From Promethearchaeota archaeon (GTDB lineage: Archaea > Asgardarchaeota > Lokiarchaeia > Sigyniarchaeales > SOKP01): DNA of 64,000 nt. The notes below the pieces were generated by a model that was not told the DNA's origin, did no database searches, and was given only the letters and a program-made list of their open reading frames with translations. Of this stretch, positions 734 through 60,715 are shown piece after piece. Position 1 is the stretch's first letter, and the number at the start of each line of letters is the position of its first letter. The stretch spans positions 64,001 to 128,000 of the forward strand of contig JAHLWP010000006.1 of NCBI GenBank assembly GCA_019057865.1. The letters run 5' to 3'. The position numbers and the translations under genes are program-made.

Positions 734-835
734 GCACCTGTAGCCTAGTTGGTAAGACGCCGGCCTTGAGTATTTGAAGCATTCAAGTAAGCCGGTGCGC
801 GTAAGCGCTCGGGGGTTCGAGTCCCTCCAGGTGCG
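734..835 (+). tRNA. tRNA-Ser(TGA) with 19-nt intron at 37/38 (771-789)
   Basis: Acceptor GCACCTG/CAGGTGC; anticodon stem CCGGC/GCCGG; loop CT-TGA-G|A; long variable arm; TTCGAGT T-loop; BHB central helix CTTG/CAAG. Confidence 0.93.
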
Positions 836-855
836 CTCTTAATAATAAAAATCAT

Positions 856-957
856 GGGCTATTGGCGCAGGCAGGTAGCGCAACCGGCTCTTAAGCGGGA
901 ATTATAAGTTCTGCAGAAGAAACCGGCAGGTCGGGGGTTCAAATCCCTCATAGCCCG
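856..957 (+). tRNA. tRNA-Lys(CTT) with 28-nt intron at 37/38 (894-921)
   Basis: Acceptor GGGCTAT/ATAGCCC; body nearly identical to the intronless tRNA-Lys(TTT) at 61883; loop CT-CTT-A|A. Confidence 0.93.
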
Positions 958-16787: not shown

Positions 16788-17489
16788 ATGATAAATATTG
16801 AAATTCGAAATCATCCAAAATTTTATAATGTCTATATATCAGGACCTCAAGAAAACTTAAAACTCTATACTAAAAATTTAACTTTAGGGAATAGAGTGTA
16901 TGGGGAGCGATTAATTAATTATAAGGGGATTGAATACCGAGAATGGGATCCCTTTAGGAGTAAGCTAGCAGCTATATTATTAGAAAATCCTATTACTAGC
17001 TTTTTAAATAGAAACTTAAAATGTTTGTATTTAGGAGCATCATCAGGAACAACAATTTCTCATCTTTCAGATATTGTTCATGACGGAATAATTTATGGCA
17101 TAGAATTTGCGGAACGAAGTATGAGGCAACTAATTCAAAATACGTCTAAAAGAGCAAATATTGTACCGATATTAGGAGATGCTCGGTATCCAGAAACTTA
17201 CTCAAATTCAATATTTACCGATATAGATTTAATTTATCAAGATGTTTCTCAACCAAATCAAGCTGAGATTGCTATTATTAATTCAAATTATTATTTAAAT
17301 GATGAAGGTACAATCATAGTAGCTATAAAATCTCAATCAATAGATAGTATTACTAAATCAGAAAAAATTTATAAACATGAGAGAGATATTTTTGAAAAAT
17401 CTGGTTATAAGATAATAGAAAGTATAAATATTCATAGATACGCTGCTAATCACATAGTTTTAATAGTGAAGAAAAAGGGAATTAGTTAA
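16788..17489 (+). CDS. flpA: Fibrillarin-like rRNA/tRNA 2'-O-methyltransferase
   Basis: VYGE; YREWDPFRSKLAA; LYLGASSGTT; DVSQPNQ. Confidence 0.96.
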   Translation: MINIEIRNHPKFYNVYISGPQENLKLYTKNLTLGNRVYGERLINYKGIEYREWDPFRSKLAAILLENPITSFLNRNLKCLYLGASSGTTISHLSDIVHDGIIYGIEFAERSMRQLIQNTSKRANIVPILGDARYPETYSNSIFTDIDLIYQDVSQPNQAEIAIINSNYYLNDEGTIIVAIKSQSIDSITKSEKIYKHERDIFEKSGYKIIESINIHRYAANHIVLIVKKKGIS

Positions 17490-18210
17490 AATATTCAGTA
17501 ATTTTTCTATTCTCTACTTCTTCATTTAAGATTTTTTTTGTTGTAACCCATGATTTCCTAGCAAACTGAGGGGGTTTTTTATTTTTTTTTATCCAATCTC
17601 TGAGGAAAGTTGTCGTTTTTATATCAGAAGGATAACCAGAGCCAAAATCACCAAACTTTTCTTTCAATTCTTCTATTAAATTATCTCTTATATCTTTTGC
17701 AATTATTGAACTTGCCGAAACTATAGGATAGGTATCATCAGCTTTATGTTTAGAAATAATTTGTCTTGGCATATATTCCAATAACATTCTAATTGATTCT
17801 CCGAATCTTTCTTCATTGACATCCGCAGCATCGATATATATACTATCTGGTTTTAACTCATTTATAATCTCAGCAATTTTTAATTCTTCTAGTCTGTTAA
17901 TAGATATTTTCCTCTCTTCTCTCTGATCGATCTCCTTAGCATTAATTACTATAACTTTATAAGAATGACAATTATCTTTTATTGCTTTAGTTAATTCACT
18001 TCTTCTTTTAGTGGATAATTTTTTAGAATCCTTAACACCAATTTTAGATAAAAAATCTAATTTTGACCTATTAAAACAAACACCACATAAAACCATTGGA
18101 CCTAAGACGGGCCCTTTTCGCATATAATTCGAATTGGACTATATTCTACCAGCCTCGTCTATTCCACAAACTATATCTAATTCTTCATTATGATTCTTGG
18201 ATGAGTTCAA
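17482..18210 (-). CDS. rnhB: Ribonuclease HII, split gene: exon 1 18210-18146, exon 2 18115-17482 (232 aa if spliced)
   Basis: Exon 1 (TTG start, inferred) MNSSKNHNEELDIVCGIDEAG; exon 2 (R)GPVLGPMV..DSKKL..DA..HKAD..GSGYPSD..PIP-like KITEYF; a 30-nt insert with in-frame TAG separates DEAGR from GP. Confidence 0.92.
18116..18145 (-). other. Putative 30-nt BHB intron in rnhB mRNA
   Basis: AATATAGTCCAATTCGAATTATATGCGAAA; bulges AG^A and AA^A; 4-nt central helix UGGU/GCGA (one mismatch); inner helix AUAUAG/UUAUAU. Confidence 0.82.
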
Positions 18211-19192
18211 TGAATTCCTCTTCATCATCAATTTCTTCTAAATTTTTAATTCTAACAATAGGAATTTTATTTTTTAAAAAAGTATCTGGGATTTTAATGT
18301 TGTTATTTACTATGAAGAGCGCAATTTTATGAAATAAGTCGGTAAACATTTTTAAGCATTTAGGATTTAACTGTTTAATCTTGTTTTGATCTTCACTAAT
18401 TCCTGAAAAAAGAGGATAAAAACCTTCTATTTTAGACTTGTCAGTTTTGGAATATAATGATAATTTGAAGGGTATTGAGCCTCTTTTATACCAATAGGAG
18501 GAAATCCCAATATCTTTGAATATTGATTGAACATGAGATTCAAAATCACTTAATTCGCTCTCCTCCATAAAATCACTTTGATCTATTTCGTATTTGAATT
18601 TCCAGTCAAAAATATTGATTTTTTTAAAAATTTCACTATCTTCTAAAATGTTTTTAATGTTTTCAGCTACTTTTTCAGAAGGATGCATACTTTCATTTTC
18701 ATAAGCACATACGGTTCTTTTTGTAACTCCAAGTTTTTCTGATAATTCTTTTCTCGTTATTGATTGCTTTTCTCGTAAGGTTTTCATCACATTGCCATTT
18801 ACAAATACTATCCCTCCCCCTCTCTTAGCAAGTATATAAGGATATATATTTTCATCTAAGATCTTTTCTAAAGTATTAAAAGTTATAAATGGCAATCCAT
18901 TCCTAATATAAATAGTATCATCTTCTAATTTTTGATATCGATTCCTAATTCCAATTAATAACGGTTTTGATTTTAGTATTATGGATAAAGATTTAATATC
19001 ATTAATTATATCTGGGGTTATATTATCAATATTCGGAAAAATTTTTAAGCTAAAAATTAAATCATTCTTTTTAACTAATATATCAAAACAAAATTTGTTT
19101 TTTTTTGAGGAAAAATTGTCTAAAGCAAATGTTTCGAACTTTGCCTTCCTTAATAAAATATTAATTTTCTGAAGAATCTGATCAATCATCAA
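18188..19192 (-). CDS. Archaeal Cro/C1-type HTH transcriptional regulator
   Basis: FCFDIL..K; YIRNGLP; KRGG; HTH SITRKELSEKLGVTKRTVCAYE. Confidence 0.88.
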   Translation of the reverse strand: MMIDQILQKINILLRKAKFETFALDNFSSKKNKFCFDILVKKNDLIFSLKIFPNIDNITPDIINDIKSLSIILKSKPLLIGIRNRYQKLEDDTIYIRNGLPFITFNTLEKILDENIYPYILAKRGGGIVFVNGNVMKTLREKQSITRKELSEKLGVTKRTVCAYENESMHPSEKVAENIKNILEDSEIFKKINIFDWKFKYEIDQSDFMEESELSDFESHVQSIFKDIGISSYWYKRGSIPFKLSLYSKTDKSKIEGFYPLFSGISEDQNKIKQLNPKCLKMFTDLFHKIALFIVNNNIKIPDTFLKNKIPIVRIKNLEEIDDEEEFIELIQES

Positions 19193-33913: not shown

Positions 33914-35053
33914 TTATTCTTCTTCATATCCAACTAATATTTCAGTAAAAATGTTAGAGATCTCAATAAAAATGGGAATCTCCACCCTACATAAGTTACC
34001 AAGTATCCATTTATTAACATCCTTTAATAAGAAACGAATTTGGTTATGGATTTTTTTGTTAATTTCAGAATCAATTATATGAGAAAGCCATAATCCCCCA
34101 CCTATTCTATATGCAATTATTTTGATTAGAGGTTCGAATAAATATTCTAATACTTGTTTCATCATCCAAGATTTCGGTATAACACTCATGCTTTTATTAT
34201 CAAAATTTGGATCATTTAAAATGGGATTTGTTTCATCTATTGATAGTTTTGGCAGGAAGCTTAATAATAAAATTAAGGCTAGTATAGCAGAAATTCCATT
34301 TATTGTATAAGATCCTCCAATTTTTTCAATATCATCTCGGTTTATAGCTACATTTGCTAAAAACATGCAAATAAAAACATTTCTATCAAATAGTTCAGAC
34401 ACATAAGCATATCCTAAGTCTTGGTCAACGATTAAATATTTTTCTTCTAGAATTTTAATTATATCATCCGGAAATGTATAAAAAGTATAAACTTTTTCTT
34501 CACTTCTTCTTATATCCTTTTCAATGACAAGTTCTTTTGAAATGAGCCCAAACATATCAATGAGCTCTTCAAGTTGATTTTTTATATAGTGTTTAGGTTT
34601 ATTTGGATCACCAAACATCGCAAAAAATTGATGATCTACAATATGAAAATCGTTTCTTTTGCTAAACGCCTCAACAATCCTATCAATTATGGGTCCTTGG
34701 GTCCCAGAAGCAATTGCTTTTGCTTTTGAAGTTACAAACCCGTTCAATAATTCATTTATAATAAAATCTTGCTCATGAGTTCTAGATTTCAAAACTTTTT
34801 CAAATGCTTCTGAAAAATTTTTGGTATTAGGAAAGAATGCATTTTGTATTTTATCATTAATAGACTTTGAAAAGATTTCACCATTATTCTTAGGAAAATG
34901 GAGTTGCATATTATTTAGTCTTTGAATTAGCGCCTCTTTTGCTCCCGGAATATTTTCAATATCTCTTTTTTCCAATTCTTCAATAGCTTTTTCAACTCCT
35001 TTTTCAAATTCCTGCAATAATTCTTTCCATATAGCATTCTGAATTTCAGTCAT
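33914..35053 (-). CDS. Hypothetical protein
   Basis: 379-aa ORF within the cluster; GAGG Shine-Dalgarno. Confidence 0.8.
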   Translation of the reverse strand: MTEIQNAIWKELLQEFEKGVEKAIEELEKRDIENIPGAKEALIQRLNNMQLHFPKNNGEIFSKSINDKIQNAFFPNTKNFSEAFEKVLKSRTHEQDFIINELLNGFVTSKAKAIASGTQGPIIDRIVEAFSKRNDFHIVDHQFFAMFGDPNKPKHYIKNQLEELIDMFGLISKELVIEKDIRRSEEKVYTFYTFPDDIIKILEEKYLIVDQDLGYAYVSELFDRNVFICMFLANVAINRDDIEKIGGSYTINGISAILALILLLSFLPKLSIDETNPILNDPNFDNKSMSVIPKSWMMKQVLEYLFEPLIKIIAYRIGGGLWLSHIIDSEINKKIHNQIRFLLKDVNKWILGNLCRVEIPIFIEISNIFTEILVGYEEE

Positions 35054-35069
35054 TTATTCTTTAATACCT

Positions 35070-36047
35070 CTACCTTCTTTCATTTGTTATATTCCAATTT
35101 AGTTCTACTGATATTTTCTTTAAAGCCTCTATTAATGGAGAAACTGACTTTTTATCATAAAAATTTGGTGATGAAACTCCCTTTTGTGCTTTCCAACCCA
35201 TTTGAGTTCCCTCGCCCATTTCTCTTTGTCCATATTTCAAAATATTGCTAAGATCTCGTATCCACCAATAAAACCTTAACCATTTTTTATTTGGATTATC
35301 TTTAGAATAGATAACTGCTAATGCTTTCCATTCACCCATCAGCCATTTTACAGTTATACCGCTCACGGGCATATAAAAATTTATTGGAAAATCTGCTTGA
35401 AAGCGTAGATCGAGATCTGAAGGTGTTATGTTGAATATTGGTTGATTATATCCTTCTAGAATAACAATTTCTCCACAATGTTGACATTCATAATGAGATT
35501 TCCTTTTTTCCATTTTTTTTTGACATCTTGGACATGTTTTATTTTCAATTATCCTATATTTAATAATTTCCAATTGTTTCTCCTTTTCTAATTCTTCTTC
35601 TGTTTTAGGTCGTCGTTTTCCATATTTTCCTGTCCAATTCCATAACTCATCAAATGATTCATCAAATTTTTCTAAAGAATTAATAAGATTGTTAAGAACA
35701 TCCTTATCATAAATTTTAAACATTCCAGCATGTTGATAGGTTTTCCACCAAGATAATCTAATATATTTCTCATTTTTCAAATAAGCACTATGACAAATCA
35801 ATACTGCAAATGCCTGATTTTCTGTTTTATTTAAAAGAATACCTTTCTCACATATCTCATATCTTCGATCTAAACTCAAATTTTTATGAAAATAATCTCC
35901 GTTCTGAATTTCACCCTTTTCAATTTTCATTTCCTCCACTAATTCAGCTATAACGTCTTTTTCTTTAATAATCTTTCTACATTGAGGGCATTGATAAATG
36001 CCTGCAACTAATAATTCCATTTCAATATTACATGAAGGACATTTCAA
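35070..36047 (-). CDS. Internally duplicated [Zn-ribbon + beta domain] protein
   Basis: CPSC..CPQC..KYIRLSWW..IYDK is repeated as CPRC..CQHC..KWLRFYWW..FYDK. Confidence 0.75.
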   Translation of the reverse strand: MKCPSCNIEMELLVAGIYQCPQCRKIIKEKDVIAELVEEMKIEKGEIQNGDYFHKNLSLDRRYEICEKGILLNKTENQAFAVLICHSAYLKNEKYIRLSWWKTYQHAGMFKIYDKDVLNNLINSLEKFDESFDELWNWTGKYGKRRPKTEEELEKEKQLEIIKYRIIENKTCPRCQKKMEKRKSHYECQHCGEIVILEGYNQPIFNITPSDLDLRFQADFPINFYMPVSGITVKWLMGEWKALAVIYSKDNPNKKWLRFYWWIRDLSNILKYGQREMGEGTQMGWKAQKGVSSPNFYDKKSVSPLIEALKKISVELNWNITNERR

Positions 36048-36049
36048 AT

Positions 36050-37150
36050 TTAATCATTCCCACTCAGAATTATAAATCTTTCATAATCTAAATTTAATAA
36101 TTTTAATTCTTTCTTTGTTAGTTTTGAAATTTCATTATTTATTTTTATCAAATTCGTTCTAAGCTTTATCAGGGATTCTTGAATTTTCTTTAGAATATCA
36201 TCCTCATTAAAAGAAACTTTTTTAATGAATTCAAGGTAACCGAGTTTTTTATCTTTTCCAGAATAATACTTTTTAATATCTGCTAGTTTATTATCTACTT
36301 CTTCTAATTGGTATCGGAAATTTATTAAAGATACTAACTTTGAATTCCATTCTTTAAATATAGAATTTTCTTTATCAATCTTATCAAAATCGAATTTTTC
36401 ATTAAGATCCACATTTTCTTCTCTAAGAAATTCTAGAACGTCCTTATTTTCTTCTAGTGCTTTATTAATTTTTTTTACAACAGGTTTAGTATTTAAAATT
36501 GGTTCAAATATTTTAATCAATTCATTTAGTTTTTCTTGAATTTCTTTAAATCGCTGATAGAAACCTTCAATTGTTATTTCGATTTTAATGGCTTGATATA
36601 TATTTCCATATTGATCTAAAATATGATAAAGATCGTCCGATAGTGTGTAATCATGTTCTCCAATTTCAAAAATAAATGCGTGTATTGCACTAGTTTTCTC
36701 ACATCTTACCCCTTTTAATCTAGTAATAGCTAAATTAAAATTTCTTCTTTGGAGAAATTTTAATTTCTTATTAATCATTAAATAGAGAGTATCATCTGGT
36801 ACAGATATTGTATCTTTTTCTATTGTTATTGTCTCATCTCCTAATTTTATGATAAAGTCATCATCTTTAAGTTCAAACTCTCTTGTATTTCGTATATTTT
36901 TAAATAAACCCAAATCAACAGCAACTTCAATAAATTCCTCATTCCAAAAATTTATGATATTTCTTTTATATATTTCATCTAATATTATAATTCTCTCATA
37001 AGATTCAATTATGTTTGGTTCATTTAAATCTTTAAATAAATCATATCTAATAGCATAAAGGAATAGAATAATATATCTCATATCCTTATCTTCTAAAATT
37101 TTATCAATTAAATCCTTATCATAATCTAATGTTAATGTCTTATGCTCCAT
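36050..37150 (-). CDS. Hypothetical protein, C-terminal coiled coil
   Basis: 366-aa ORF, first gene of the cluster. Confidence 0.8.
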   Translation of the reverse strand: MEHKTLTLDYDKDLIDKILEDKDMRYIILFLYAIRYDLFKDLNEPNIIESYERIIILDEIYKRNIINFWNEEFIEVAVDLGLFKNIRNTREFELKDDDFIIKLGDETITIEKDTISVPDDTLYLMINKKLKFLQRRNFNLAITRLKGVRCEKTSAIHAFIFEIGEHDYTLSDDLYHILDQYGNIYQAIKIEITIEGFYQRFKEIQEKLNELIKIFEPILNTKPVVKKINKALEENKDVLEFLREENVDLNEKFDFDKIDKENSIFKEWNSKLVSLINFRYQLEEVDNKLADIKKYYSGKDKKLGYLEFIKKVSFNEDDILKKIQESLIKLRTNLIKINNEISKLTKKELKLLNLDYERFIILSGND

Positions 37151-37360
37151 ACCTAAAGTCCACTAATTATTATTAATACTATAAATTCATTATCGTGAAA
37201 AAGAGTAAGATTGATAATTAAACATTCCTAAAAAATTTTACTAAATTCCTCTTAATTACTAATCCATAAAAGCAAAATTTTTTAGTTTTTATTTCTATTT
37301 GTTTAATAAGAATTTTAAAATTCATGAATTTAGTTTAAACAATTTTTAGAGTTTTTCAAC

Positions 37361-37970
37361 ATGGGAAGAAGAAAAAGGAAACAGCCAACATATAAAAGAG
37401 TTAAAAAAGTACCCAAAATTTTCACCTGCCCGGAATGACGAGATCGACTACTGATTTCTCCCTGAATGTGGTGAAAAAAGTGTAAAAGTTACTGATATAA
37501 AAAAGAAGGGTGCTTTTGCTACAGTAAAATGTGGGAATTGTGGATTAACCCAGGAAGTATTAGTGAATGCAATTTCAGAACCAGTAGATGCTTTTGGAGA
37601 TTTTATAGATATTCATTATGCAGATCAAGAACTCTTGAGATTAGAAAAAAGAGTTGCAAAATTGAAAGAAGAAGGTGAATGGGGTGAACTTGCATTTGCT
37701 TACTCTATATTGTCGGATCTTTGCAGAACGAAAGCAGCACTGTTATTAGAGGAAGATAATATCGATATGGACAAAGTTAATGACTGGAAAATGAAAGCTG
37801 AACAATATAAAAAGCTTAAAAAGGATGCTTTATTGAAACTTGATACAGAAGAATTAGAACGAGGTGTTAGAACAGATGAAGAGTCCTTATTTGCTGAAAG
37901 TGAAACAAAAATAAAGAAGGAGCGAAAAATAGAAGATATCTTTGATGATCCAGGATTTTTAGAATTTTAA
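37361..37970 (+). CDS. elf1: Transcription elongation factor Elf1 with C-terminal extension, split gene: exon 1 37361-37435, exon 2 37467-37970 (192 aa if spliced)
   Basis: Exon 1 MGRRKRK...PKIFTCPE; exon 2 CGEKSVKV...ATVKCGNCGL...SEPVDAFGDFID; separated by a 31-nt insert beginning TGA; TTTAAA ~25 nt upstream of the ATG. Confidence 0.92.
37436..37466 (+). other. Putative 31-nt BHB intron in elf1 mRNA
   Basis: TGACGAGATCGACTACTGATTTCTCCCTGAA; outer helix CUGC/GUGG; central CCGG/CCUG (one mismatch); bulges AA^U and AA^U; inner helix GA(C)GAGAUCG/UGAUUUCUC. Confidence 0.87.
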
Positions 37971-38426
37971 AAATTCATTGTTATGAGACTTAATTATCAT
38001 AATTTAAAATTTTCATCTTAATTTTAGCTGGAATGTGTTTCCAAATTGGTAGTTTTAAGAGATAATTAAAAAACTGCTTTCGGTTTAATTTCTTTTTTAA
38101 TACTAAATAACTCCAATTATGAAATGATAATCGATTAAACAGTTTCATGAGGTTTATATATATATAATTGTCTTTGTAGATCGTGTGCTACATTGACTTT
38201 TTTTTCAATCCTTGGTTTTTCTTCAGAAGGGAGCAATAGTTTCAACCATTTAAATTCACATTAGTACTTATGTAAAATTTTTAAAATTTTTATTTTTACT
38301 TAAAATTCATGGTATAATCTTAAATTTTAATTTCTTAAGAACATAGTAAATTTATAAAAAAAAGTAAGGAACATTGTTTATTTTCAACTAAAAAATAAAC
38401 AGATATTAGTGGTTCTAACTAAAATT

Positions 38427-38849
38427 TCACTCACTTCGACTTTTCCGTCGTGCAAATAGCTCTTTTAATTCTCCCATAATTGCTCCTCTTAATGTAGAGG
38501 GACTGGCAGGACGTCCTCCTCCAGGTGGACCTCCAGGTGGACCCCCAGGTGGTCCTGCAGGGGGAGGTGGGGGGCCTCCGGGACTGGGAGAAGCGACTGT
38601 TGGCGTAACAGTAGGAGATATTGCTGCTCCTGCACCTTTGTTACCACCAAGACTGCTATTAATAGCATTTACTTGAGTTTGTAAACTTGAAACCTTTGAA
38701 TTGATATTTTGGATACTTCGATCAACTAAATCTGGAATTTTAAGAATTATTTGCATAATTTTTTCAATAATATCACCAAAAGCATTAAGTTTTTCTTCTA
38801 ATGGTGCTTTTCGGGTTTCTGAGAGAAAATTTGCGAATTCTTCTGCCAT
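38427..38849 (-). CDS. Coiled-coil + polyproline + C-terminal amphipathic helix protein
   Basis: GGPPPPPAGPPGGPPGGPPGGG followed by LRGAIMGELKELFARRK. Confidence 0.85.
   Translation of the reverse strand: MAEEFANFLSETRKAPLEEKLNAFGDIIEKIMQIILKIPDLVDRSIQNINSKVSSLQTQVNAINSSLGGNKGAGAAISPTVTPTVASPSPGGPPPPPAGPPGGPPGGPPGGGRPASPSTLRGAIMGELKELFARRKSRSE
38521..38556. repeat. 3 x 12-nt coding tandem repeat (GPPG units)
   Basis: ccaggtggacct ccaggtggaccc ccaggtggtcct. Confidence 0.8.
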
Positions 38850-38948
38850 ATAATACTTCCTATTTAATTTATTAAAGATCTAAATTCCTTTATCTAATAA
38901 TTATATAGATTTTTGTTTAATAAATTTAAGTTTAAACGAAAAATATAT

Positions 38949-39569
38949 CTAACTTAATTCAGTAACAGTATCTTTTAACTTAATCCATAATGTATTAATC
39001 TCTTTTTTTACTTCTTTAAATTGATGGATTTTTTTAATTAGTATGTCACGAGACCTATCAAAATCACGTTGAACGTCATTCAATTCTTGATCGAGGATAT
39101 TCAATTTATCACCATCAACTAATTTATTTTTAACTTTTTCGACGTTTAATGCCTTTTTTATCACAATTGATCTTTTATTGGCCACATCAGATAAAGCATT
39201 AGCAAATTCCTTTTTCTTTTCTACTAAATAGTCTTTTTGTACAGCTAAATCTTTTATTGCGTTTAAATATCTTTTATTACCCTCGATGTATTTGTCATTT
39301 TGAGTAATAATTTCCTTATATAGATTTACTTCCTCATCTTTAATATTAGATCTATGCTCTCTAGCTAAAGTTTGCATTTGCTTTAAAACGTCTCTAAAAG
39401 TTCGATTAAGCATTTCTCGAGTTATATTGGCTTTTGTAATGTTTTCAGCATATTTTGATTGAATACTAATTAAGGCACTCTGGGCATTAATTAATTTCTT
39501 TAGTTGCCCCACTAATTCTTTTTCCATTTTAGCTAACTCAAGTTCATCTTCATGAGTTATAATCGGCAT
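38949..39569 (-). CDS. All-helical coiled-coil protein (possible BAR-like fold)
   Basis: 206 aa of continuous heptads; Pro only at residue 2. Confidence 0.75.
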   Translation of the reverse strand: MPIITHEDELELAKMEKELVGQLKKLINAQSALISIQSKYAENITKANITREMLNRTFRDVLKQMQTLAREHRSNIKDEEVNLYKEIITQNDKYIEGNKRYLNAIKDLAVQKDYLVEKKKEFANALSDVANKRSIVIKKALNVEKVKNKLVDGDKLNILDQELNDVQRDFDRSRDILIKKIHQFKEVKKEINTLWIKLKDTVTELS

Positions 39570-39662
39570 TTTATTAAATCTCTTTTATTTATGTGTTTTT
39601 TATTTTTTAATTAAACTATATGTTAATCAAAATAACATCTTTATTTATTTTTATGTTCTAAT

Positions 39663-40697
39663 TTAAAATGGAAAAATAGCAGTTAAAATATTATTTTTAA
39701 AATTGGCTTTAATAATCCTTGCTTTAATTTTTTTACCTAATAGTTCTGGTGAATATATCATTGGTTTTTTTAATAACACTTTTATTCCCATATTTGTATC
39801 AATTTTCCCTATACATTCATGTTTCCATCGTCCATTAGATACAATCTTTAAGTCAACTATGTCATTTTTTTTTAGATTTAAAGGCATTGTTTTCTCTCTT
39901 TTATGAATACCAAAATCAATTGGACCAAGTTTTAATTTAATATCATATTTTTTTTCCAATTTGGTTAGTTGAGTATAAAAATAATCCCAAGATTTAGGAC
40001 GTATTTTCTTTAATTTCCGACCAGTTCGGTATATCAAATATTTTTGAATCCCTAATTGAATTTTTTTTTCTGAATATCCTTCTCTTCTTTTATTAACCAC
40101 GAGTTTTATAATTTCTTCAATATCCTCATCATTTTCCCTTGGAAACCAAACTGGTGCAAGTAATACATTAATATTGGAATCAAGTAAAAGATCAATATTG
40201 GCTAGTAATCTATCCATATCATATTCTTTACATGCACATAAATAACTTGCCTTGCTTGGACTTAAAGTATTTAAGCTGATATTAATTTGAGTAAGATTTG
40301 CATTTTCTAGTTTCTTTATAGTCTTTTTGTTTAGCATTAAACCATTACTCTGCATAGAAATTCGTTCTATTCCATCAATTTCCCATAATTTCTCTAATAG
40401 AATAAATAATTCAGAATATAGTAAAATTTCTCCATAGGGAGCAATATGAATTTCAATATCATAATTACCTTTTATTTGGATAGTATTTTCTAAAGTTGCA
40501 ATTAAATAATCTGATGCTACAATAAAATTGGTTTTATAATCTCCTGCACTTACAAAACAATATCGGCATTTTAGATTGCATAATGTCAATGGTTTTAATT
40601 CAACAATATTTGTACCTCTATCGATTACTCCTATAAAATCGACTCCGTATAAGGGAATATCCGATTTTTCATTAACATAAATAACTTCAGAGGACAT
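39663..40697 (-). CDS. Archaeal radical SAM protein with C-terminal TRAM-like domain
   Basis: IPLYG..FIGVIDRGTN; CNLKCRYC. Confidence 0.88.
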   Translation of the reverse strand: MSSEVIYVNEKSDIPLYGVDFIGVIDRGTNIVELKPLTLCNLKCRYCFVSAGDYKTNFIVASDYLIATLENTIQIKGNYDIEIHIAPYGEILLYSELFILLEKLWEIDGIERISMQSNGLMLNKKTIKKLENANLTQINISLNTLSPSKASYLCACKEYDMDRLLANIDLLLDSNINVLLAPVWFPRENDEDIEEIIKLVVNKRREGYSEKKIQLGIQKYLIYRTGRKLKKIRPKSWDYFYTQLTKLEKKYDIKLKLGPIDFGIHKREKTMPLNLKKNDIVDLKIVSNGRWKHECIGKIDTNMGIKVLLKKPMIYSPELLGKKIKARIIKANFKNNILTAIFPF

Positions 40698-46735: not shown

Positions 46736-48220
46736 ATGAAATTTAAGATGAATGTTAATAAGATTGAAGAAAATATTTATGAAATAGCTCCTAAAACTTT
46801 AATGGTACGAATTCGAGGGAAAATTGAAAAATTTCAGATGAATGTACCAGTTCATATATACGCTAATGATTATATTTTAGAAAAAATAAGATCAGATCGA
46901 ACTTTAGATCAAATTACTAATGTTGCATGTTTATCTGGGATACAGAAGCACGCTATTGCACTTTCAGATGCTCATCAAGGATATGGATTTTGTATTGGAG
47001 GAGTTGCAGGTACAGACGCAGAAGATGGTATGATTTCTCCTGGGGGTGTAGGTTATGATATAAATTGTGGTGTAAGATTATTAAGATCTAATTTAATGCT
47101 TAATGATGTTCGAAATATACTTCCAAGTTTATTAAATACAATATTTAAAAATATTCCTTCAGGATTAGGATCTAAAGGTAAATTAAATATTAGTTATTCA
47201 GATTTAGATAATGTTTTAAACGATGGAATGAATTGGGCTCTAGATAAAGGCTATGCAAATGAAGAGGACCTTAAACATTGTGAAGAAGAGGGTTGTTTAA
47301 TGGGTGCTGATGCCAAATTAATATCCCAAAAGGCTAAACAACGAGCAATTAAACAGCTTGGATCATTAGGAAGTGGAAATCATTTTCTTGAGATTCAAAA
47401 AGTTGATGAAATCTATAACGAAAAGATCGCTAAAGAGCTAGGAATCATTAAGAAAAATCAGATCACTATTATGATACATACGGGAAGTAGAGCTTTAGGA
47501 CATCAAGTTTGTACAGATTCCCTACGGAACATTGAACAGGCAATGCATAAATATAATGTTAAGGTTCCAGATAGAGAATTAGCTTGTGTTCCAGCGAATA
47601 CTCCTGAAGCAAAAAATTACTTGTCTAGTATGGCATGTGCGGCTAATTTTGGCTTTACTAACCGTCAATTAATTACTCATTGGATAAGAGAATCGTTTCA
47701 AAATTCATTTAAAAAAGATTTTGATGCATTAGATTTACATTTAATTTATGGTGTATGTCATAATATTTTAAAGATAGAAGAACATGAAATTAATGGTAAA
47801 AAAATGAAATTGAACGTGCATCGAAAAGGGGCAACAAGAGCATTTCCCCCAGGACATCCAGATTTATCTAATGATTATAAATCGATAGGACAACCTGTTT
47901 TAATTCCGGGAACGATGGGTTCTGCTTCATATTTATGTGTTGGTAAACCAAAAGCTATGGATCTCTCATTTGGTTCTACTGCTCATGGTTCTGGAAGAAT
48001 GATGTCAAGAACAAAAGCTAAAAAAAAATATTGGGGTACACAAGTAAAAGAGGACTTAGCAAAAAAAGGAATTTTAGTAAAAAGCGCTTCAATGAAGATA
48101 TTAGCGGAAGAAGCGCCTGGAGCATATAAAGATATTGACCAAGTTGTACAAGTCAGTCATAATCTTGAAATTATTGAAAAGATTGTCAAACTAGTTCCTA
48201 TAGGTGTAGTGAAGGGTTAA
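46736..48220 (+). CDS. rtcB: tRNA-splicing ligase RtcB
   Basis: DAHQGYGF; GYDINCG; GSGNHFLE; HRKGAT; HGSGR; EEAPGAYK. Confidence 0.97.
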   Translation: MKFKMNVNKIEENIYEIAPKTLMVRIRGKIEKFQMNVPVHIYANDYILEKIRSDRTLDQITNVACLSGIQKHAIALSDAHQGYGFCIGGVAGTDAEDGMISPGGVGYDINCGVRLLRSNLMLNDVRNILPSLLNTIFKNIPSGLGSKGKLNISYSDLDNVLNDGMNWALDKGYANEEDLKHCEEEGCLMGADAKLISQKAKQRAIKQLGSLGSGNHFLEIQKVDEIYNEKIAKELGIIKKNQITIMIHTGSRALGHQVCTDSLRNIEQAMHKYNVKVPDRELACVPANTPEAKNYLSSMACAANFGFTNRQLITHWIRESFQNSFKKDFDALDLHLIYGVCHNILKIEEHEINGKKMKLNVHRKGATRAFPPGHPDLSNDYKSIGQPVLIPGTMGSASYLCVGKPKAMDLSFGSTAHGSGRMMSRTKAKKKYWGTQVKEDLAKKGILVKSASMKILAEEAPGAYKDIDQVVQVSHNLEIIEKIVKLVPIGVVKG

Positions 48221-60616: not shown

Positions 60617-60715
60617 AGCCTCTGGGGGGAATTGAACCCCCGACCTACAGATATTTCTGTAAATCTTTATTGTTACACATACGAATCTGTTGCTATACCG
60701 CTAAGCCACAGAGGC
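60617..60715 (-). tRNA. tRNA-Thr(CGT) with 27-nt intron at 37/38 (60653-60679)
   Basis: Acceptor GCCTCTG/CAGAGGC; arm ACAGA-TT-CGT-A|A-TCTGT. Confidence 0.93.

What the first reader, a model, noticed from the sequence alone, without database searches (positions are those of the whole stretch)
37361..37970. elf1 is interrupted inside its Zn-finger by a 31-nt BHB intron (37436-37466)
Seen: ATG 37361 reads MGRRKRK..KIFTCPE and then TGA. Thirty-one nt later, in a different frame, the sequence continues CGEKSVKV..CGNCG..EPVD. The pre-mRNA folds with outer helix CUGC/GUGG, central helix CCGG/CCUG, two AAU bulges and a 9-bp inner hairpin. Removing 37436-37466 gives TGC CCG GAA|TGT GGT, i.e. CPECG. 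Unspliced RNA would give only a 25-aa peptide. Both exons look fully conserved, which argues against a pseudogene.
Basis: partly seen in the sequence, partly recalled or inferred. Interest (0 to 1): 0.93.

Follow-up and report, generated by a model that had tools for sequence, protein, structure and literature searches.

The report
tRNA-type mini-intron splitting Asgard elf1
The only gene for transcription elongation factor Elf1 in this Asgard (Promethearchaeota) archaeon is broken by a 31-base insert shaped like the introns archaea cut out of tRNAs. Comparison with 36 related interrupted genes shows it is almost certainly spliced out of the mRNA, which has been published for only one other archaeal coding sequence (cbf5).

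Summary
elf1 (ATG 37361) reads 25 codons, meets UGA, and resumes 31 nt later in another frame. Removing 37436-37466 gives CPECG, as in intronless relatives.

The insert is real DNA: contigs from three independent studies carry it.

It folds as a relaxed bulge-helix-bulge (BHB):
- a 10-bp exon-exon helix;
- a central helix with 3 of 4 pairs (one C.U mismatch);
- two AAU bulges;
- a 9-bp intron hairpin.

In the same family, 37 elf1 loci from four genera carry a 28-32 nt insert at this exact codon boundary, and most congeners have none. Every insert has a stop or a frameshift. BHB geometry holds in 36 of 37 only at the protein-defined junction, and in none at any shifted register. The hairpin covaries, and so does an exon-intron pair (third base of the Pro codon). 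Exons are under purifying selection (dN/dS 0.02-0.18).

The genome encodes EndA alpha, a beta-like paralogue, and RtcB.

No RNA data could be found, so splicing is inferred, not shown. Ribosomal bypass fits the own sequence but only 13 of 37 loci.

This scan has already noted elf1 and other mRNA BHB introns on other Asgard DNA. In print I found only cbf5 and a Haloferax 5' UTR intron.

The parts
37361..37435 (+). elf1 exon 1: 25 codons, MGRRKRK...KIFTCPE, the first half of the CPxC zinc knuckle
   Evidence: Pfam PF05129 profile positions 1-26. Identical in protein to the N-terminus of the intronless orthologue L002.
37436..37466 (+). 31-nt BHB-type intron. It begins with UGA, shifts the frame by +1, and is single copy in the genome.
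   Evidence: Absent at exactly this point from 29 congeneric elf1 genes and present in 17 others.
37467..37970 (+). elf1 exon 2: CGEKSVKV...CGNCG..., 167 codons plus TAA. It holds the rest of the Zn ribbon and a long helical C-terminal part.
   Evidence: Pfam PF05129 profile positions 28-76, E 1.3e-9.
37419..37429 (+). 5' strand of the outer exon-exon helix h (UUUUCACC-U-GC, with U37427 bulged)
   Evidence: pairs with 37468-77; 99.4% of cells are paired across 18 orthologues. TTCACC is fixed in 18 of 18 intron-bearers against 2 of 29 intronless genes.
37430..37433 (+). Central helix H, 5' strand (CCGG = Pro codon plus the G of GAA)
   Evidence: Pairs with 37461-64: C-G, C.U, G-C, G-C. The third base of the Pro codon covaries with the intron base.
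37434..37436 (+). 5' bulge AAU; predicted cut after A37435
   Evidence: The rule of cutting between the 2nd and 3rd bulge nucleotide is stated in PMC2738675.
37437..37460 (+). Intron hairpin h' (2 bp, a 1-nt bulge, 7 bp, and a 5-nt loop)
   Evidence: In the genus alignment, 7 of 10 pairs show compensatory double changes.
37461..37464 (+). Central helix H, 3' strand (CCUG, intron)
37465..37467 (+). 3' bulge AAU; predicted cut after A37466
37468..37477 (+). 3' strand of the outer exon-exon helix h (GUGGUGAAAA)
46910..48217 (+). rtcB, the RNA 3'-phosphate ligase that would join the exon halves; about 9 kb downstream in the same window
   Evidence: PF01139, 561 bits, G000:C75:110910-112217 = window 46910-48217, open frame 518 aa.

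Best explanation
The 31 nt at 37436-37466 are an archaeal splicing-endonuclease (BHB) intron inside the elf1 coding sequence. Inferred mechanism: in the pre-mRNA the two exon ends pair with each other as a 10-bp helix. The last four exon-1 bases before the bulge pair with the last four intron bases before the 3' bulge, forming 3 of 4 pairs. The intron's middle forms a 9-bp hairpin. This displays two AAU bulges on opposite strands. The heterotetramer-type EndA (alpha plus a beta-like subunit, both encoded) cuts after the second nucleotide of each bulge, that is after A37435 and A37466. RtcB (encoded 9 kb downstream) ligates the exons to ...UGC CCG GAA|UGU GGU..., restoring the CPEC zinc knuckle and a 192-aa Elf1. 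Unspliced RNA yields only a 25-aa peptide. What is shown: the anatomy, that the insert is real DNA, structure conservation and covariation, the register test, purifying selection, and presence of the enzymes. What is inferred: actual cleavage and ligation in vivo. The intron is old within the family (four genera, with related UGG...CCA hairpin cores) and has been lost precisely many times. In this species the GAATG direct repeat offers a simple slippage route for such loss.
For: 1. The two exons abut in the Elf1 profile. Joining them gives the same CPECG as the intronless relative L002, whose exon-2 protein is 95% identical.
2. The fold is significant: -15.8 kcal/mol, z = -3.45.
3. DNA contigs from three studies carry the insert unchanged.
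4. 18 of 47 congeneric species, and 37 parsed loci in four genera of the family, have a 28-32 nt insert at the identical codon boundary. There are 30 distinct intron sequences, and each has a stop or a frameshift.
5. At the protein-defined junction the central helix forms 4/4 pairs in 6 loci, 3/4 in 30 and 2/4 in 1. With flanking helices required, BHB geometry holds in 36 of 37 at shift 0 and in 0 of 37 at every other shift or excised length.
6. Covariation: 90.4% of cells are paired, against 44-53% when partners are slid. Eight pairs show double changes, 7 of them in the hairpin. The central pair runs AU:11, UA:4, GC:1 with none unpaired. The synonymous third base of the Pro codon tracks the intron base: CCA-U, CCG-C, CCU-A.
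7. dN/dS is 0.02-0.18 among intron-bearers. Exon 1 shows, for example, 12 nt changes with 0 aa changes between L038 and L042.
8. G000 has a single elf1 and is 99.67% complete.
9. EndA alpha has its best PDB match in the A. pernix catalytic subunit 3p1z_B. A second paralogue lacks the catalytic His, and RtcB is present.
10. Asgard EndA is reported as (alpha-beta)2 with the L1 loop that gives broad, relaxed-BHB specificity (PMC5829648). cbf5 introns use equally relaxed motifs and the same cutting rule (PMC2738675).
Against: There is no RNA evidence of any kind: no RNA run holds the locus and no spliced junction was seen. The own motif is not canonical; one of its four central pairs is a C.U mismatch. 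By the criterion of a 2026 preprint, 3-of-4 motifs without flanking helices arise by chance at many boundaries, although here both flanking helices are present. The outer helix is largely dictated by the amino-acid sequence (8.8 of 10 pairs on average even in intronless genes), so it is weak evidence on its own. The species compared are relatives, so counts of loci overstate the number of independent events.
Confidence: 0.85

Rival explanations
1. Translational bypass (a ribosome hop, as in phage T4 gene 60). Peptidyl-tRNA-Glu leaves GAA 37433-35 next to the UGA stop, slides over 31 nt that contain a hairpin, re-pairs at GAA 37464-66, and resumes at UGU. The protein would be the same without any RNA processing.
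For: In the own sequence the take-off and landing codons match (GAA/GAA), a stop follows the take-off codon directly, and a hairpin starts just after it. In L050 both codons are GAU.
Against: Take-off and landing codons match in only 13 of 37 orthologous inserts. Examples that do not match are GAA/AAA, GAA/GAU, AAU/GAU and CAA/GAU. The exon-intron central-helix covariation and the strict BHB register have no role in bypassing. The GAAUG repeat follows from the two-fold symmetry of a G-AAU-G BHB.
Confidence: 0.05
2. A broken gene or a neutral insertion. Either elf1 is a pseudogene in these species, or the insert is a small footprint with a 5-bp target duplication and the two pieces are not joined.
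For: An in-frame stop and a frameshift are present, and the insert is flanked by the 5-nt direct repeat GAATG. Close relatives lack it.
Against: It is the only elf1 copy in a 99.67% complete genome. Both exons are under strong purifying selection in intron-bearing lineages. The insert is kept at the same site in 37 loci of four genera, with compensatory changes that preserve structure. Exon 2 has no start codon before the zinc ribbon ends; the first is GTG 37563. There are no related copies elsewhere in the genome. The direct repeat is absent in several orthologues such as L057 and the g16 and g22 loci.
Confidence: 0.04
3. Programmed +1/-1 frameshifting or stop-codon readthrough joins the two frames during translation.
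For: Exon 2 lies in the +1 frame relative to exon 1, and a UGA sits at the boundary.
Against: The exon 1 frame closes at 37436-38, while the exon 2 frame is closed by UGA at 37452-54 and opens only from 37455. No single shift can connect them. In the 30-nt in-frame orthologues, readthrough would put 10 residues inside the CxxC knuckle.
Confidence: 0.01
4. A real RNA structure that is removed or used by something other than EndA, for example another nuclease-ligase pair or a regulatory hairpin with an unknown rescue route.
For: Cleavage by EndA has not been shown. The central helix is imperfect in 31 of 37 loci.
Against: The geometry (3-nt bulges, 4-position helix, cuts after bulge nucleotide 2) is exactly that of EndA substrates and fits at one register only. 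No other archaeal system is known that excises about 30 nt precisely; this last point rests on my own knowledge.
Confidence: 0.05

Closest known systems
BHB intron in the cbf5 (pseudouridine synthase) pre-mRNA of Crenarchaeota (Watanabe 2002; Yoshinari 2006; Yokobori 2009, PMC2738675)
   Same: A short tRNA-type intron inside a coding sequence, within a functional motif. The BHB is mostly relaxed. The cut falls between the 2nd and 3rd bulge nucleotide. It is linked to a hetero-oligomeric (alpha-beta)2 EndA. Its distribution among close relatives is patchy and read as gain and secondary loss.
   Different: The gene is different (elf1, not cbf5) and so is the phylum (Asgard/Promethearchaeota, not Crenarchaeota). 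For cbf5, spliced cDNA and in vitro cleavage exist; here splicing is inferred only. The exon-exon helix here is long (10 bp) and is encoded by the zinc-knuckle codons themselves.
Canonical archaeal pre-tRNA intron (hBHBh' at position 37/38; Marck and Grosjean 2003)
   Same: Same architecture: an outer helix, a 4-position central helix, two 3-nt bulges on opposite strands, and an inner hairpin. After splicing the exons form a stem with a 7-nt loop, with the junction between loop positions 6 and 7, as in an anticodon arm. The same enzymes (EndA, RtcB) are expected to act.
   Different: The host is an mRNA, not a tRNA. One central pair is mismatched in this species. There is no tRNA body to aid recognition, so the enzyme must accept the motif in a non-tRNA context.
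BHB intron in the 5' UTR of Haloferax volcanii HVO_1309 (Schwarz et al. 2020, PMC7714728)
   Same: An mRNA substrate of the splicing endonuclease outside tRNA and rRNA.
   Different: That intron lies in an untranslated leader and does not interrupt a reading frame. It was shown by circRNA-seq and in vitro cleavage.
Translational bypass of phage T4 gene 60
   Same: In the own sequence there are matched codons on both sides of a non-coding gap, a stop after the take-off codon, and a hairpin at the take-off site.
   Different: The gap is 31 nt, not 50. Codon matching fails in 24 of 37 orthologues. The conserved features are those of a BHB.

Membership tests
Archaeal splicing-endonuclease (BHB) intron | [quoted passage not shown] | tested here: not met
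   In the own sequence the bulges AAU/AAU are correctly placed, but the central helix CCGG/CCUG has 3 pairs plus a C.U mismatch. All four pairs form in 6 orthologous elf1 introns, L075-L080.
Archaeal splicing-endonuclease (BHB) intron | Relaxed BHB: at least 3 of 4 central pairs with 3-nt bulges, as accepted by broad-specificity (alpha-beta)2 EndA | tested here: met
   The own sequence has 3 of 4 pairs, and 36 of 37 orthologous inserts have at least 3 of 4.
Archaeal splicing-endonuclease (BHB) intron | Flanking helices h (exon-exon) and h' (intron) | tested here: met
   A 10-bp outer helix with one bulged U and a 9-bp inner hairpin. Both are conserved, and the inner one carries 7 covarying pairs.
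Archaeal splicing-endonuclease (BHB) intron | Cutting after the 2nd nucleotide of each bulge gives the functional junction | tested here: met
   Cuts after 37435 and 37466 give CPECG in frame. The protein-defined junction equals the BHB register in 36 of 37 loci, and no other register fits.
Archaeal splicing-endonuclease (BHB) intron | Splicing machinery encoded (EndA and RtcB ligase) | tested here: met
   There are two PF01974 paralogues: an alpha with the catalytic Tyr/His/Lys context and a beta-like one without the His. RtcB scores 561 bits.
Archaeal splicing-endonuclease (BHB) intron | Excision and exon ligation seen in RNA (junction reads, a circular intron, or in vitro cleavage) | not testable with these tools
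   No RNA run holds the locus. The one RNA run that was laid gave nothing. The junction pattern found only intronless DNA of other species.
Elf1 transcription elongation factor (Pfam PF05129) | Zn ribbon with four Cys (CxxC ... CxxC) matching the family profile above its cut-off | tested here: met
   Exon 2 alone scores 38.5 bits against a cut-off of 29.8. Exon 1 supplies profile positions 1-26. CPEC and CGNC are both present after joining.
Programmed translational bypass (gene 60 type) | Matched take-off and landing codons conserved among homologues | tested here: not met
   They match in the own sequence (GAA/GAA) but in only 13 of 37 orthologous inserts.

The most novel reading that the evidence does not exclude
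EndA/RtcB splicing of mRNAs is a routine step of gene expression in this Promethearchaeota family. On this reading the elf1 intron is an ancient, family-wide micro-intron (four genera, a related hairpin core) that is lost precisely again and again. It makes production of a transcription elongation factor depend on the tRNA-splicing machinery, and would be a non-spliceosomal form of mRNA splicing in the closest prokaryotic relatives of eukaryotes, possibly used as an expression gate.
Probability: 0.5. Interest if true: 0.85.

Novelty: new member of a known kind. Interest (0 to 1): 0.7.

Why it matters
In the papers I could search, an archaeal BHB intron inside a coding sequence is documented only for cbf5 of Crenarchaeota, and a further mRNA case lies in a Haloferax 5' UTR. 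An intron of this type in elf1 would extend mRNA splicing by the tRNA machinery to Asgard archaea and to a gene of the transcription apparatus. It is polymorphic among about 50 congeneric species and present in four genera.

Three practical consequences follow:
- It is a natural series for studying intron gain and loss.
- It shows that gene callers split or truncate such genes. Here they would call a 25-aa and a 135-aa ORF.
- It sets a concrete experiment: RT-PCR across 37435/37467, or cleavage by recombinant EndA.

The scan has flagged similar cases on other Asgard DNA, so the case is one well-documented instance of a wider pattern rather than a one-off.

Tried and rejected
RNA evidence. No RNA holder was listed for window 35000-40000. 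The one RNA run of a related study (X24) laid nothing on the stretch. A scan of metagenome contigs for the spliced junction (TTTTCACCTGYCCNGAATGYGGTGAAAAAAG) gave two hits. Both are intronless genomic elf1 genes of other species, 83% and 92% identical to the nearest genus members. This gives no evidence on splicing either way.

Genome-wide scan. I scanned G000 for BHB-shaped 14-45 nt segments whose removal restores a long ORF. There were 207,309 structural candidates. About 3,000 passed the ORF test at the true length, and equally many passed at control lengths (-4 to +4). The background from ordinary gene junctions swamps any signal, so I abandoned the scan and make no count of introns per genome.

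ARAGORN with intron mode on the window's tRNAs gave unreliable intron placements. I did not use it as a positive control.

Search for other copies of the intron in G000, allowing up to 6 substitutions: none found. A repeated mobile element is therefore not supported.

Simple frameshift or readthrough is rejected from the frame map.

The outer helix as independent evidence is down-weighted, because intronless genes already form 8.8 of 10 pairs owing to the protein sequence.

Full report
**Observation.** The + strand carries ATG at 37361 followed by 25 codons (MGRRKRKQPTYKRVKKVPKIFTCPE) and TGA at 37436-38. From 37467, in the +1 frame, it reads CGEKSVKV...CGNCG...EPVD... through to TAA at 37968-70. 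Pfam's Elf1 zinc-ribbon model (PF05129) matches exon 1 at profile positions 1-26 and exon 2 at positions 28-76 (E 1.3e-9, above the curated cut-off), so the two pieces meet at one point of the family profile. Removing 37436-37466 gives TGC CCG GAA|TGT GGT, that is CPECG.

**Is the insert real DNA?** No RNA run holds the stretch, but 20 DNA runs from 13 studies do. I laid contigs of three independent studies (X3, X4 and X5). They span 37100-37985, 37100-38100 and 37361-38100, with no indel, joint or base difference between 37361 and 37728. The insert is therefore not an assembly artefact.

**Structure.** RNAfold of 37420-37480 gives -15.8 kcal/mol, z = -3.45, with 0 of 200 shuffles as stable. 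The layout has four elements:
- an outer exon-exon helix, 37419-29 with 37468-77 (10 bp, U37427 bulged);
- a central helix, 37430-33 (CCGG) with 37461-64 (CCUG), forming C-G, C.U, G-C, G-C;
- a 5' bulge AAU at 37434-36 and a 3' bulge AAU at 37465-67;
- an intron hairpin at 37437-60 (2 + 7 bp).

This is the hBHBh' arrangement with one mismatched central pair, so it is a relaxed BHB. The cutting rule for BHB substrates, between the 2nd and 3rd bulge nucleotide (stated in PMC2738675), predicts cuts after 37435 and 37466. That is exactly the frame-restoring junction. The junctions share the repeat GAATG, so the product does not fix the cut to one bond. It also raised a rival explanation, ribosomal bypass.

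**Relatives.** The window is G000:C75:64001-128000, and the genome is 99.67% complete with one elf1. Related records are titled Promethearchaeota or Promethearchaeia MAGs, which are Asgard archaea. In the same genus, 49 of 54 genomes have the gene. Of 47 loci I could read, 29 are uninterrupted and 18 carry a 31-nt insert (one is 32 nt) at the identical point. Across the class (161 genomes, Pfam search), interrupted elf1 appears only in the same family, in four genera. I parsed 37 interrupted loci holding 30 distinct insert sequences of 28-32 nt. All sit between the codon after CP and the TGY of CG. Every insert either shifts the frame or, where it is 30 nt, carries an in-frame stop.

**Register test.** I placed the junction from the protein alone (CPx|CG) and then asked whether BHB geometry fits. 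The central helix has 4/4 pairs in 6 loci, 3/4 in 30 and 2/4 in 1. The criteria were at least 3/4 central pairs, an outer helix of at least 3 bp, and an inner helix adjoining the bulge. These hold in 36 of 37 loci at shift 0. They hold in 0 of 37 at every shift from -5 to +5, and in 0 of 37 when only the excised length is changed. The structure and the coding junction thus agree at single-nucleotide resolution.

**Covariation.** On the 18 genus sequences (alignment A1), 90.4% of cells pair, against 44-53% when 3' partners are slid by 1-3 columns. Eight pairs show changes on both sides, 7 of them among the 10 hairpin pairs. No shuffle reached the observed covariation score. RNAalifold independently recovers the outer helix and the hairpin. 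The most telling pair joins the synonymous third base of the Pro codon to an intron base: CCA with U, CCG with C, CCU with A. It is never unpaired in the genus, and the same holds in genera g21 and g22. Each sequence class has its one central mismatch at a different position (1, 2, 3 or 4). The outer helix is weaker evidence, because intronless genes already form 8.8 of 10 pairs on account of the KIFTCP..CGEK codons. Even so, intron-bearers fix the strongest version, TTCACC, in 18 of 18 loci against 2 of 29.

**Is the gene alive?** dN/dS between intron-bearing genes is 0.02-0.18. Exon 1 alone shows, for example, 12 nucleotide differences and no amino-acid change between L038 and L042. Together with the single copy per genome, this excludes a pseudogene.

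**Machinery.** G000 encodes two EndA paralogues. One (200 aa) has its best PDB match in the catalytic subunit of the Aeropyrum pernix heterotetramer (3p1z_B, E 3e-35) and keeps the Tyr/His/Lys context. The other (207 aa) lacks the His. This is what an (alpha-beta)2 enzyme requires. RtcB lies in this window at 46910-48217. Kaneta et al. 2018 report that Asgard EndA is (alpha-beta)2 and carries the L1 loop associated with cleavage of relaxed BHBs (PMC5829648).

**Rivals.**
- Bypass fits the own sequence (GAA/GAA, a stop, a hairpin). However, take-off and landing codons agree in only 13 of 37 loci, and bypass gives no reason for the exon-intron covariation.
- A single frameshift is impossible. 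Exon 1's frame closes at 37436-38, and exon 2's frame opens only after UGA at 37452-54.
- A mobile repeat is not supported, because the genome holds no other copy.

**Evolution.** On a gene tree the intron needs at least 11 changes, with about 5 forced by well-supported branches. The nearest relatives of this species (exon-2 protein 93-96% identical) lack it. Introns of the four genera share a UGG-loop-CCA hairpin core, which favours one old intron with many precise losses. Recurrent gain at a site pre-shaped by the exon hairpin is not excluded. This part is inference.

**What is known.** In the searchable literature, coding-sequence BHB introns are confirmed only for cbf5 of Crenarchaeota, and a Haloferax 5' UTR intron is the other mRNA case. 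I found no paper on elf1 or on Asgard mRNA introns. Within this scan, however, elf1 BHB introns have been noted in at least 33 genomes and mRNA BHB introns in more than 180, including several genes of this genome. These are AI notes that I did not verify, beyond confirming the family-wide elf1 case myself.

**Verdict.** Splicing itself is not yet shown. The finding is a new member (new gene, new phylum) of the known kind of EndA-spliced mRNA intron.

Noticed in passing
window 17482-18231 (- strand): rnhB (RNase HII) is split inside its GIDEAGR|GPVLGPMV motif by a 30-nt insert with an in-frame UAG. The two ORFs are 18231-18139 and 18123-17482. The fold z-score is only -1.19. It is probably a second mRNA mini-intron, but it is less clear-cut than elf1.
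   Followed up: partly
window 46910-48217 (+): The RtcB RNA ligase gene (PF01139, 561 bits) lies about 9 kb downstream of the intron-bearing elf1.
   Followed up: partly
window 734-835, 856-957 (+) and 60617-60715 (-): Three tRNA genes of 99-102 nt match Rfam tRNA, but plain ARAGORN misses them. They evidently carry introns, some at non-canonical positions. ARAGORN's intron mode places them unreliably.
   Followed up: partly
G004:C94:40890-41390 and G004:C171:3803-4303 (L057, L019): One congeneric genome bin holds two elf1 genes, one with the intron and one without. They are about 78-81% identical to the query. The bin has 9% contamination, so they may come from two organisms.
   Followed up: no
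window 38427-38849 (- strand): A 140-aa ORF next to elf1 has a Pro/Gly-rich low-complexity stretch (GGPPPPPAGPPGGPPGGPPGGG). I did not examine it.
   Followed up: no
L049 (G041:C48) and L056 (G069:C1): Two intronless congeneric elf1 genes keep the TTCACC exon version that is otherwise fixed only in intron-bearers. This is compatible with recent precise intron loss.
   Followed up: no
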